Source: Escherichia coli
GTDB lineage: Bacteria > Pseudomonadota > Gammaproteobacteria > Enterobacterales > Enterobacteriaceae
DNA: 64,000 nucleotides
Assembly: GCF_003334405.1 (NCBI RefSeq)
Contig: NZ_QOWM01000002.1
Strand: one strand, 5' to 3'
Notes under the pieces: model-generated
What the model was told of the DNA's origin: nothing
Database searches by the model: none
The model's input: only the letters and a program-made list of their open reading frames with translations
Shown here: one piece after another, positions 9,809-12,180 of the stretch
How the letters are laid out: each line of letters opens with the position of its first letter
How positions within the stretch are numbered: position 1 is the stretch's first letter
Position numbers and translations under genes: made by a program

Positions 9809-10705
9809 ATGGACATTTTTATTTCGAAAAAGATGCGCAATTTCATTTTATTAGCGCAAACCAATAATATTGCCCGGGCGGCAGAAAAAATCCATATGAC
9901 GGCTTCGCCATTTGGTAAAAGCATTGCCGCGCTGGAAGAACAAATTGGCTATACGCTATTTACCCGCAAAGATAATAATATCAGCCTCAATAAAGCCGGA
10001 CAGGAACTGTATCAAAAACTGTTCCCGGTTTATCAACGGCTTTCTGCGATTGATAATGAAATCCATAACTCAGGGCGTCGTTCACGAGAAATTGTGATTG
10101 GCATAGATAATACTTATCCGACAATTATTTTCGATCAGTTGATTAGTCTCGGAGATAAGTATGAAGGCGTGACCGCCCAGCCAGTTGAGTTCAGCGAAAA
10201 TGGCGTTATCGATAATCTTTTTGACCGCCAGTTAGATTTTATTATCTCCCCACAGCATGTATCTGCACGAGTTCAGGAACTGGAAAACCTGACTATCAGT
10301 GAACTACCACCGCTGCGATTAGGCTTTCTCGTTTCTCGCCGTTATGAAGAGCGACAAGAGCAAGAGCTGCTTCAGGAGCTGCCCTGGCTACAAATGCGCT
10401 TTCAGAACCGGGCCAACTTCGAAGCAATGATTGATGCGAATATGCGACCTTGTGGGATCAATCCAACCATTATTTATCGTCCCTACAGTTTTATGGCCAA
10501 AATCAGCGCCGTGGAGCGCGGACATTTTCTGACGGTGATCCCGCATTTTGCCTGGCGACTGGTGAATCCGGCAACGCTGAAATATTTTGATGCACCGCAC
10601 AGGCCGATGTATATGCAGGAATATCTTTATTCAATCAGAAATCATCGTTATACCGCCACGATGCTTCAGCATATTGCTGAAGATCGTGACGGGACGAGTC
10701 ATTAA
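9809..10705 (+). CDS. ygfI: LysR-family transcriptional regulator
   Basis: 298 aa from MDIFISKKMRNFILLAQTNNIARAAEKIHMTASPFGKS (HTH); the track start at 9794 is extended. Confidence 0.8.
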   Translation: MDIFISKKMRNFILLAQTNNIARAAEKIHMTASPFGKSIAALEEQIGYTLFTRKDNNISLNKAGQELYQKLFPVYQRLSAIDNEIHNSGRRSREIVIGIDNTYPTIIFDQLISLGDKYEGVTAQPVEFSENGVIDNLFDRQLDFIISPQHVSARVQELENLTISELPPLRLGFLVSRRYEERQEQELLQELPWLQMRFQNRANFEAMIDANMRPCGINPTIIYRPYSFMAKISAVERGHFLTVIPHFAWRLVNPATLKYFDAPHRPMYMQEYLYSIRNHRYTATMLQHIAEDRDGTSH

Positions 10706-12180
10706 CCCAGCATCGAGCCGGTTGCAATTAAATTACGGTGTAAGTCGAAGACGTGGCTAAGATCGTGGTGAATATGTCCGCCAGGCGCATTTTCCAGATA
10801 GCGATGCAGATAATCCCGATACATAGGATGTGCACAATTATCAATGATAGTGCGGGCGCGTTGAAGCGGGGAAAGACCGCGCAGATCGGCGATCCCTTGT
10901 TCGGTGATGATCACTTTGACGCTGTGTTCGCTGTGATCAACATGGCTGCACATTGGCACGACGGTTGAGATCTTGCCTTCTTTAGCAATCGACGGGGCCA
11001 TAAAGATCGACAGATACGCGTTGCGTTCAAAATCACCGCTGCCGCCGATGCCGTTCATCAGATCGACCCCGGCTACGTGTGTTGAGTTGGCATGCCCGTA
11101 AATATCAAACTCCAGGCCGACGTTCAGAGCGATGACGCCCAGACGACGGATGATTTCCGGGTTATTGGAAATCTCCTGCGGACGCAACACAATGCGGCTG
11201 GCAAAGTAATCCATATTGTCGTAAATCTTGCGCAGGGAATCGGCCGAGATTGTCAGGCTGGAGGCGCTGGCCCCGCTGATTTTGCCGGTTTCCAGTAAAT
11301 GCACCACCGATTCCTGTAGCACTTCCGAATACATCATAAACGGAGGAATTACCGGGTTTTCCCCCAGACGCGCCATTACCGCATTATTGATATTGCCCAC
11401 GCCACTTTGCAGCGGCAGAAATTCCGGCGGAATACGCCCATGCGCTATTTCCTGCAATAAGAACGTGACCACGTTATCGGCAATCTGCTGGCACATGGGA
11501 TTTTGCTTATCCAGCATATTACCGGCGTCGGGCAAGTTGGTTTCCACGACGGCGACAATCTTTTTCGGATCGATTTGCACATAGCGGGTACCGACGCGAT
11601 CCATTGCATGGAAGATCGACACGCTATTGCGCCGCGGTGGCGCGCCAGGAATCACAATATCCGCCAGTTCTGCAACGCGCGGATCGTGATAGTGATTGAG
11701 TTCAATGATCACTTTCTTCGCCCGCAGCAGCCAGGTCGGCGCATTACCGATCCCGCTGGTTAACCAGACTCGACCATCCGGTGCCAGTGCCGATGCTTCA
11801 ATGACGGCAACATCAATGTCGCCGAAGAAACCGTAATTGACCATTTGCGCCACTTCGCTCAAATGCAGGTCAACGAAACTCACCGCGCCCTGATTGATCT
11901 TTTTACGTAAACCGGACGATGTTTGATATGGCGCACGCCAGGAAACAGCATCGGCGTCAGAAAGTACATCGTCAGCGGCGGCGCTGATTGACGCACCCGT
12001 CAGAAGGCGAATTTGATACGGCTTTTTGGCCTCATGCTGTTCGTTAGCTCTGCGGGCAATCGCGGTGGGTAGGGCTTTCGGCGAACCCGCCGGGGTAAAG
12101 CCGCTAAATGCCACCATGTCGTTATGCTGGATAATTTCTGCCGCTTCATTGGCGGTCATCCTTGTCCACTGAGTTTCCAT
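10702..12180 (-). CDS. scpC: propionyl-CoA:succinate CoA transferase
   Basis: 492 aa CoA-transferase family protein; last gene of the sbm operon. Confidence 0.9.
   Translation of the reverse strand: METQWTRMTANEAAEIIQHNDMVAFSGFTPAGSPKALPTAIARRANEQHEAKKPYQIRLLTGASISAAADDVLSDADAVSWRAPYQTSSGLRKKINQGAVSFVDLHLSEVAQMVNYGFFGDIDVAVIEASALAPDGRVWLTSGIGNAPTWLLRAKKVIIELNHYHDPRVAELADIVIPGAPPRRNSVSIFHAMDRVGTRYVQIDPKKIVAVVETNLPDAGNMLDKQNPMCQQIADNVVTFLLQEIAHGRIPPEFLPLQSGVGNINNAVMARLGENPVIPPFMMYSEVLQESVVHLLETGKISGASASSLTISADSLRKIYDNMDYFASRIVLRPQEISNNPEIIRRLGVIALNVGLEFDIYGHANSTHVAGVDLMNGIGGSGDFERNAYLSIFMAPSIAKEGKISTVVPMCSHVDHSEHSVKVIITEQGIADLRGLSPLQRARTIIDNCAHPMYRDYLHRYLENAPGGHIHHDLSHVFDLHRNLIATGSMLG

What the first reader, a model, noticed from the sequence alone, without database searches (positions are those of the whole stretch)
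10700..10707. Convergent ygfI and scpC genes share overlapping stop codons
The plus-strand TAA of ygfI (10703-10705) and the minus-strand TAA of scpC (10702-10704) lie within the palindrome TTAA, so the two convergent genes end on the same nucleotides with no space for terminators between them. This implies convergent transcription through each other's 3' ends.
Basis: seen in the sequence. Interest (0 to 1): 0.2.

Follow-up and report, generated by a model that had tools for sequence, protein, structure and literature searches.

The report
Shared stop codons, embedded terminator hairpin
Two E. coli genes that face each other (srsR/ygfI and scpC) do end on the same four bases, which is a common and already annotated arrangement, and a conserved RNA hairpin that looks like the scpC operon's terminator sits inside the last 50 bases of srsR.

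Summary
TTAA at 10702-10705 holds the TAA of srsR (=ygfI, + strand) and the TAA of scpC (- strand). RefSeq annotates the same 4-nt overlap. This is the well-described [T/C]TA[A/G] class of convergent overlaps, so it is not surprising in itself. It is strongly conserved: 33 of 42 related loci from Escherichia to Yersinia keep exactly 4 nt, and all four allowed tetramers occur.

"No space for terminators" holds only for intergenic space. Nine nt after the scpC stop, inside srsR codons 282-295, lies the most stable 45-nt fold of the whole 64-kb window (-28.7 kcal/mol, scpC sense), followed by a U-rich tail. Four lines of evidence point to selection on it:
- It is conserved in about 33 of 41 aligned loci.
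- It is far more stable than synonymous recodings of the same peptide (2 of 3000 as stable).
- It lies in a trough of synonymous variation.
- Its G·U pairs favour the scpC-sense RNA 3:1.

The best reading is a scp-operon terminator or 3' stabiliser embedded in srsR. I found no terminator for srsR. No transcript-end data for this pair were found. The case is ordinary and of low interest.

The parts
10702..10705 (.). TTAA tetranucleotide shared by the two stop codons: srsR TAA at 10703-10705 on the + strand, scpC TAA at 10704-10702 on the - strand.
   Evidence: Conserved as [T/C]TA[A/G] in 33 of 42 related loci.
9809..10705 (+). srsR (ygfI) coding sequence, a LysR-family regulator of 298 aa.
   Evidence: RefSeq annotation. 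Pfam HTH_1 at residues 8-65 and LysR_substrate at 89-283. NCBIfam SrsR equivalog at 635 bits, cutoff 425.
10702..12180 (-). scpC (ygfH) coding sequence, propionyl-CoA:succinate CoA transferase of 492 aa. It is the last gene of the scpA-argK(meaB)-scpB-scpC operon.
   Evidence: NCBIfam TIGR03458 at 752.6 bits, cutoff 658.7.
10653..10692 (-). Core hairpin in scpC-sense RNA: 18 bp with one bulge and an AUA loop. It begins after a 9-nt spacer downstream of the scpC stop and lies in srsR codons 282-295.
   Evidence: -28.7 kcal/mol on the - strand against -24.8 on the + strand, and rank 1 of 42,638 windows of 45 nt in the 64-kb window. Conserved with pair-preserving changes. Native far more stable than synonymous recodings.
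10642..10697 (-). Extended stem. In E. coli, UCGUC (10697-10693) pairs with GAUGA (10646-10642) across a 6-nt internal loop. In Citrobacter and Klebsiella, a 4-bp extension follows a 1x1 loop, giving about 25 bp in all.
   Evidence: Fold of 10630-10700 on the - strand. Alignment columns 15-18 with 67-70.
10633..10641 (-). U-rich tail directly after the extended stem. It is UUUCUGAUU in E. coli. In most other genera it is U G A/G UUUUU C A. This is the expected site of scp-operon transcript 3' ends.
   Evidence: Read from the sequence. A run of at least 5 U occurs in 30 of 41 aligned loci, and at least 5 U in 10 nt in 39 of 41. Termination here is inferred, not shown.

Best explanation
srsR (ygfI) and scpC are real convergent genes whose stop codons share TTAA. 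This is an ordinary, annotated and evolutionarily stable 4-nt overlap.

Because there is no intergenic DNA, the 3'-end signal of the scpA-argK-scpB-scpC operon has been placed inside the partner gene. After a 9-nt spacer downstream of the scpC stop, the scpC-sense RNA folds into a long G+C-rich hairpin (core 10653-10692, extended 10642-10697). A U-rich tail follows at 10633-10641.

I propose that this hairpin acts as the operon's intrinsic terminator, or as the stable 3' stem-loop that stops exonuclease trimming after Rho-dependent termination. Under this model scp transcripts end about 60-70 nt inside srsR. srsR itself has no recognisable intrinsic terminator. Its transcripts probably read into antisense scpC until Rho or a head-on polymerase collision stops them.

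Shown here: the overlap, the hairpin, its conservation, its codon-level selection and its strand bias. Inferred: that it terminates or stabilises transcripts, and everything about how srsR transcripts end.
For: - The overlap and the gene identities are established.
- The hairpin is the most stable 45-nt fold in the window on either strand, ahead of REP elements and other terminators.
- It is present in Escherichia, Citrobacter, the Klebsiella oxytoca group, Salmonella arizonae and diarizonae, Yokenella, Pluralibacter, Superficieibacter, Kosakonia sacchari and others.
- RNAalifold predicts it de novo on 28 ungapped sequences: 19 pairs, -20.45 kcal/mol.
- On the 41-sequence alignment, 79.8% of cells are paired against 27-53% when the partners are slid. 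Fourteen pairs show changes on both sides, against 8.3±1.5 in shuffles (0 of 500 reach it).
- Strand bias: 124 G·U cells on the scpC-sense strand against 40 that would be G·U on the srsR-sense strand. The scpC-sense fold is the more stable in 31 of 35 non-Yersinia loci, with means of -29.2 and -22.8 kcal/mol.
- Codon choice: the native fold is -28.7 kcal/mol against -14.3±3.7 for synonymous recodings of the same peptide. Only 2 of 3000 recodings are as stable, and 0-1 of 1000 in seven other species.
- Synonymous diversity across srsR codons 282-295 is the second lowest of 285 windows (0.339 against a mean of 0.574).
- A U-rich tail follows the extended stem in 39 of 41 loci.
- Literature: terminators of convergently overlapping E. 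coli genes lie inside the partner's coding sequence in 21 of 58 overlaps (PMC2174442).
Against: - I found no experimental 3' end. Term-seq and other supplements held as text list nothing at scpC or ygfI.
- The simple terminator scanner does not flag the site in E. coli or in Citrobacter. The stem carries a bulge and an internal loop, and the E. coli U-tract is degenerate (UUUCUGAUU).
- Covariation among the close relatives is modest. Only 3 pairs in the 28-sequence set show compensatory changes, and the covariation term is about 0. RNAalifold fails on the full set that includes Yersinia.
- The encoded peptide (RYTATMLQHIAEDRDG) is itself conserved, so part of the nucleotide conservation reflects selection on the protein.
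- Yersinia keeps the 4-nt overlap without the local hairpin.
- Rho-dependent 3' ends already occur inside scpA and scpB, so few polymerases may reach this site in K-12.
Confidence: 0.6

Rival explanations
1. The hairpin is a by-product of protein-level constraint on the SrsR C-terminal helix, or simply chance. Under this reading it has no nucleic-acid function, and the overlap is a neutral result of stop-codon drift.
For: The peptide across residues 280-295 is well conserved in the genera that carry the hairpin. Compensatory changes are few among close relatives. Yersinia lacks the hairpin but keeps the overlap. 4-nt overlaps are explained well by neutral stop-codon mutation (PMC2174442).
Against: Synonymous recodings of the same peptide average -14.3 kcal/mol against -28.7 for the native sequence, and only 2 of 3000 are as stable. 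The result holds in seven other species. Synonymous diversity is in a trough exactly here. The fold is the best of 42,638 windows. The two Pseudescherichia-like loci keep a strong hairpin built from a different sequence.
Confidence: 0.1
2. The structure works in the srsR-sense mRNA or at the level of both polymerases. It could be a pause or collision-positioning stem-loop (a 'bidirectional terminator element') for the convergent pair, or an element that affects the stability or translation of the srsR 3' end.
For: The srsR-sense RNA also folds strongly (-24.8 kcal/mol, and 0 of 3000 recodings are as stable). Stem-loops are required to position head-on RNAP collisions at convergent gene boundaries (Wang et al. 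2022 bioRxiv). srsR is induced about 25-fold in stationary phase (PMC9181523), so it is the transcript more likely to be present.
Against: G·U pairs and stability favour the scpC sense. No U-tract follows the hairpin in the srsR sense (ACGAGUCAUUAACCC). In the srsR sense the hairpin lies upstream of the stop codon, so a transcript ending at the stem would lack a stop codon. Both operons are weakly expressed, so collisions should be rare.
Confidence: 0.17
3. The 40-bp near-palindrome is a DNA operator for a dimeric DNA-binding protein, or some other DNA-level element, rather than an RNA structure.
For: It is a near-perfect inverted repeat. srsR is a regulator gene that travels with the scp cluster.
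Against: Changes that keep G·U pairing on one strand only are not expected for a DNA site. The published SrsR box TCAGATTTTGC is neither present here nor enriched in the window: 31 matches with up to 2 mismatches against 23±4.5 expected. Neither of the two SrsR binding studies (gSELEX, ChIP-exo) mentions the scp genes in its main text.
Confidence: 0.06

Closest known systems
4-nt convergent stop/stop overlaps (CTAA, TTAA, CTAG, TTAG) in prokaryotic genomes (Lillo & Krakauer 2007, PMC2174442)
   Same: The geometry is identical: two stop codons on opposite strands share the TA core. All four allowed tetramers are seen among orthologous loci.
   Different: Nothing differs in kind. This instance is unusually stable over evolutionary time, from Escherichia to Yersinia.
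Rho-independent terminators located inside the coding sequence of a convergently overlapping partner gene (in 21 of 58 E. coli convergent overlaps at least one gene has one)
   Same: A hairpin and U-rich tail lie directly downstream of one gene's stop and inside the other gene's 3' coding region.
   Different: The stem is unusually long (about 23-25 bp, with a bulge and an internal loop). The E. coli U-tract is degenerate. Termination has not been demonstrated. I could not check whether this site is in the published prediction lists.
Convergent ilvA-ilvY pair of E. coli, with overlapping transcription and termination (Sameshima, Wek & Hatfield 1989; known to me only from the reference list seen)
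   Same: A LysR-type regulator gene converges on the last gene of a metabolic operon, and their transcripts overlap.
   Different: The details of the ilvA-ilvY junction were not examined here. For srsR/scpC there are no transcript data, and no regulatory link between SrsR and the scp operon is known.
Bidirectional terminators and RNAP-collision termination at convergent gene pairs (SEnd-seq work; Wang et al. 2022 bioRxiv 10.1101/2022.10.23.513370)
   Same: A stem-loop at the boundary of a convergent pair forms in both transcripts.
   Different: There is no A-tract/U-tract symmetry, so the U-rich tail exists in one direction only. The element lies inside a coding sequence, not between genes. 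Expression of both units is low.

Membership tests
4-nt convergent stop-codon overlap | Two genuine protein-coding genes on opposite strands. | tested here: met
   NCBIfam matches above the curated cutoffs for both genes. RefSeq annotation. Orthologues in 42 loci.
4-nt convergent stop-codon overlap | Tetranucleotide [T/C]TA[A/G] holding both stop codons. | tested here: met
   TTAA at 10702-10705. TTAA, CTAA, TTAG or CTAG in 33 of 42 loci.
Intrinsic (Rho-independent) terminator | Stable G+C-rich stem-loop in the sense transcript shortly after the stop codon. | tested here: met
   -28.7 kcal/mol, 9-nt spacer after the scpC stop, rank 1 of 42,638 windows. Conserved.
Intrinsic (Rho-independent) terminator | U-tract directly after the stem. 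| tested here: inconclusive
   E. coli has UUUCUGAUU after the extended stem, but only UAUAACGA after the core stem. A run of 5 U occurs in 30 of 41 loci, 2-3 nt after the extended stem. The simple scanner reports nothing.
Intrinsic (Rho-independent) terminator | Transcript 3' ends map to the U-tract, independently of Rho. | not testable with these tools
   No 3' end for scpC or ygfI in the held supplements. Other data sets are not held.
Bidirectional terminator of a convergent pair | Hairpin flanked by an A-tract upstream and a U-tract downstream, so that both strands read stem followed by U-tract. | tested here: not met
   The srsR-sense sequence after the stem is ACGAGUCAUUAACCC, which is not U-rich.
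Excludon (mutually exclusive expression through overlapping transcripts) | Overlapping antisense transcripts with reciprocal expression, often dependent on RNase III. | not testable with these tools
   The pair is absent from the p19 dsRNA supplements. The ExcludonFinder supplements are not held.
LysR-type transcriptional regulator (SrsR) | N-terminal HTH_1 domain plus a LysR substrate-binding domain. | tested here: met
   PF00126 at residues 8-65 and PF03466 at 89-283. NF047842 at 635 bits.

The most novel reading that the evidence does not exclude
srsR and the scp operon may form a conserved five-gene cassette in which the embedded hairpin couples the two units. srsR stays convergent on scpC even where the upstream neighbours differ, as in Yersinia, Kosakonia, Superficieibacter and Martelella. 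How far scp transcription invades srsR, set by an imperfect terminator inside the srsR coding sequence, would then tune SrsR levels in an excludon-like way. Conversely, SrsR may be the missing regulator or sensor of the 'sleeping' succinate-to-propionate pathway. Neither link has been reported in the papers I read.
Probability: 0.1. Interest if true: 0.4.

Novelty: new member of a known kind. Interest (0 to 1): 0.18.

Why it matters
The overlap itself matters little. It is annotated in every E. coli genome and belongs to the commonest class of convergent overlaps.

Two modest points of value came out of the check.

First, this is a clean and well-conserved example of a nucleotide-level signal (a terminator-like hairpin) written into the codons of a neighbouring gene. 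It has measurable effects on codon choice and on synonymous variation. That is useful as a caution for anyone who recodes or deletes srsR or scpC, for example in propionate or 1-propanol strain engineering that activates the sbm/scp operon.

Second, the tight linkage of srsR to the scp cluster across genera hints at a functional connection that the published SrsR regulon studies have not addressed.

Tried and rejected
- The simple promoter/terminator scan found nothing at the junction in E. coli or in Citrobacter amalonaticus. My own cruder scan also missed it, because the stem has a bulge and an internal loop, and it found only background-level candidates downstream of srsR.
- Rfam at permissive E-value gave no match in 10300-11100.
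- RNAalifold on all 41 sequences, including Yersinia and other outliers, did not recover the hairpin. It did on the 28 ungapped sequences.
- An alternative 'anti-terminator' pairing of 10709-10722 with 10652-10665 is only moderately kept: a mean of 10 of 14 positions, mostly through ATGCT/AGCAT, which derive from Met-Leu codons in both genes. I dropped it as probably incidental.
- The SrsR box TCAGATTTTGC is neither enriched in the window nor present at the junction.
- Rut-like C>G regions downstream of the srsR stop appear only 300-700 nt in and are weak. They are suggestive at best.
- I looked for experimental 3' ends or dsRNA at scpC/ygfI in Adams 2021, Dar & Sorek 2018, Conway 2014, Yan 2018, Huang 2020 and ExcludonFinder 2025. 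Nothing was listed, or the supplements are not held. The SEnd-seq paper could not be opened under the id I tried.
- A full-text search for scpC together with 'intrinsic terminator' returned no papers.

Full report
**Observation.** The window reads CATTAACCCA at 10700-10709, so TTAA occupies 10702-10705. The + strand ORF ending at 10705 stops with TAA at 10703-10705. The - strand ORF 10702..12180 (492 aa) stops with TAA, read from 10704 to 10702. The region is 100% identical to many complete E. coli chromosomes. RefSeq annotates srsR (the current name of ygfI) and scpC with exactly this 4-nt overlap. NCBIfam confirms both identities above the curated cutoffs: SrsR equivalog at 635 bits against 425, and the YgfH/ScpC subfamily at 752.6 against 658.7. 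Pfam finds HTH_1 and LysR_substrate in SrsR. The annotated srsR start is 9809 (298 aa).

**Is it more than chance?** The overlap type is ordinary. [quoted passage not shown] They count 58 convergent overlaps in E. coli.

What stands out is conservation. A scan of one genome per GTDB species with SrsR returned 42 loci. In every one, scpC converges on srsR. In 33 the overlap is exactly 4 nt, and all four permitted tetramers occur. The exceptions are:
- Salmonella arizonae and diarizonae, with a 15-nt overlap.
- Two Kosakonia species, with 30 nt.
- Yersinia proxima, with 40 nt.
- One locus with abutting stops.
- One locus with a 128-nt gap.

The junction is single-copy and present in 5423 of 5426 complete E. 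coli genomes.

**What else is there.** Folding the junction showed a long hairpin just inside srsR. In the scpC-sense RNA the core (10692 to 10653) forms 18 pairs with one bulge and an AUA loop, at -28.7 kcal/mol. It begins after a 9-nt spacer downstream of the scpC stop. Among all 42,638 windows of 45 nt on both strands of the 64-kb window it ranks first, ahead of REP elements and recognisable terminators. The srsR-sense version is weaker, at -24.8 kcal/mol. In E. coli, a 5-bp extension (10697-10693 with 10646-10642) brings the stem up against a U-rich tail, UUUCUGAUU (10641-10633). In Citrobacter, Klebsiella and most other genera, the extended stem of about 25 bp is followed by U-G-A/G-UUUUU-C-A. 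A run of at least 5 U occurs in 30 of 41 loci.

**Is the hairpin selected or incidental?** It lies in srsR codons 282-295 (RYTATMLQHIAEDRDG). That peptide is itself conserved and sits at the end of the LysR substrate domain. Four tests separate RNA constraint from protein constraint.

1. Synonymous recoding of the same peptide gives -14.3±3.7 kcal/mol against the native -28.7. Only 2 of 3000 recodings are as stable. In seven other hairpin-bearing species, 0-1 of 1000 recodings match the native.
2. Synonymous diversity over these 14 codons is the second lowest of 285 windows along srsR, at 0.339 against a mean of 0.574.
3. On a 41-sequence alignment, 79.8% of cells pair against 27-53% for slid partners. 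Fourteen pairs carry changes on both sides, against 8.3±1.5 in shuffles (0 of 500 reach it).
4. Wobble pairs are strand-biased. There are 124 G·U cells in the scpC sense against 40 positions that would be G·U only in the srsR sense. The scpC-sense fold is the more stable in 31 of 35 non-Yersinia loci.

There are caveats. Among the 28 closest ungapped sequences, RNAalifold recovers the hairpin de novo (19 pairs, -20.45 kcal/mol), but with almost no covariation term. On the full set it fails. Yersinia keeps the overlap and the U-run but lacks the local hairpin. Neither scanner flags the site, and Rfam has nothing.

**Mechanism.** The best-supported reading is that the scp operon's 3'-end signal is embedded in srsR. 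It could be an intrinsic terminator, or the stem-loop at which 3' exonuclease trimming stops after Rho-dependent termination. This matches the known situation in which terminators of convergently overlapping genes must lie inside the partner's coding sequence. In E. coli that is predicted for 21 of 58 such overlaps.

For srsR I found no intrinsic terminator within scpC, and no U-tract follows the hairpin in that sense. C-rich, G-poor stretches that could serve Rho appear only 300-700 nt downstream. srsR transcripts therefore probably read some distance into antisense scpC.

Overlapping 3' ends are normal in E. coli: 276 of 370 convergent operons, with a mean overlap of 286 nt (PMC4161252). Stem-loops at convergent boundaries can also position polymerase collisions. 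That remains a live secondary possibility.

How much convergent transcription really happens here is unknown. The scp operon is 'hardly expressed' in laboratory strains (PMC3850637). Bicyclomycin-sensitive 3' ends already occur inside scpA and scpB. srsR rises about 25-fold in stationary phase (PMC9181523). I found no mapped 3' end or dsRNA for this pair.

**Comparison and novelty.** The overlap is already known: it is annotated, and its class is described. The embedded hairpin is at most a new member of a known kind, and I found no description of it in the full-text searches I ran. It fails the test for a canonical bidirectional terminator, because the tail is one-sided. Its U-tract is only borderline in E. 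coli.

**Verdict.** The feature is ordinary, and interest is low (0.18).

The one lead worth a note is that srsR travels with scpC-scpB-argK even where the upstream neighbours yggE, argO and mscS are absent. The published SrsR/YgfI regulon papers never mention the scp genes, and no SrsR box is evident nearby.

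Noticed in passing
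Loci L026, L028, L032, L033, L035-L040, L042 and L044, compared with window 7175-13995: srsR remains convergent on scpC-scpB-argK in genomes that lack the E. coli upstream neighbours yggE, argO and mscS (Yersinia, Kosakonia, Superficieibacter, Martelella and others). srsR therefore behaves as part of the scp cassette. The SrsR/YgfI regulon papers do not mention the scp genes.
   Followed up: partly
L002 4104-5159 (E. coli strain S3), corresponding to window ~10702-16000: 1122 of 5426 complete E. coli genomes do not cover 80% of the srsR-scpC query. In the examples inspected, a deletion fuses a 5' fragment of scpA to the last 153 nt of scpC. In strain S3, srsR also carries an internal stop. The junction and hairpin are still retained.
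   Followed up: partly
L004 3001-3897 (Escherichia albertii NBRC 107761): srsR in the E. albertii type strain has a premature stop (192 aa), although the rest of the gene aligns at 97% identity.
   Followed up: no
E. coli K-12 coordinates 3060897 (+) and 3064032 (+), inside scpA and scpB (roughly window 12300-16100, - strand): The supplementary table of Adams et al. 2021 lists bicyclomycin-sensitive (Rho-dependent) 3' ends close to the start of scpA and inside scpB. This fits the 'sleeping' state of the operon.
   Followed up: no
Window 13798-13845 (+ strand) and 15736-15785 (- strand): Two further very stable 45-nt folds (-25.3 and -24.5 kcal/mol). The 13798-13845 fold lies within the argK/meaB ORF span, on the antisense (+) strand. 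The gene context of 15736-15785 was not checked. Neither is explained.
   Followed up: no
Window 34633-34685, 6943-6987, 30889-31005, 826-885, 39112-39170 and 48454-48498: Other top-ranking hairpins in the window. Several look like REP-type or other repeat palindromes, or ordinary terminators. They served only as the comparison set for ranking the srsR hairpin.
   Followed up: no
Window 10709-10722 with 10652-10665: The last codons of scpC are complementary (12 of 14 positions) to the 3' arm of the hairpin, giving a possible alternative pairing across the shared stop codons. It is only moderately conserved (mean 10 of 14), mostly through Met-Leu codons present in both genes.
   Followed up: yes
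H1 (NZ_CM128582.1), region matching window 9600-12300: One E. coli genome has an IS1 transposase inserted within the srsR-scpC-scpB stretch, so the match is split into two pieces.
   Followed up: no
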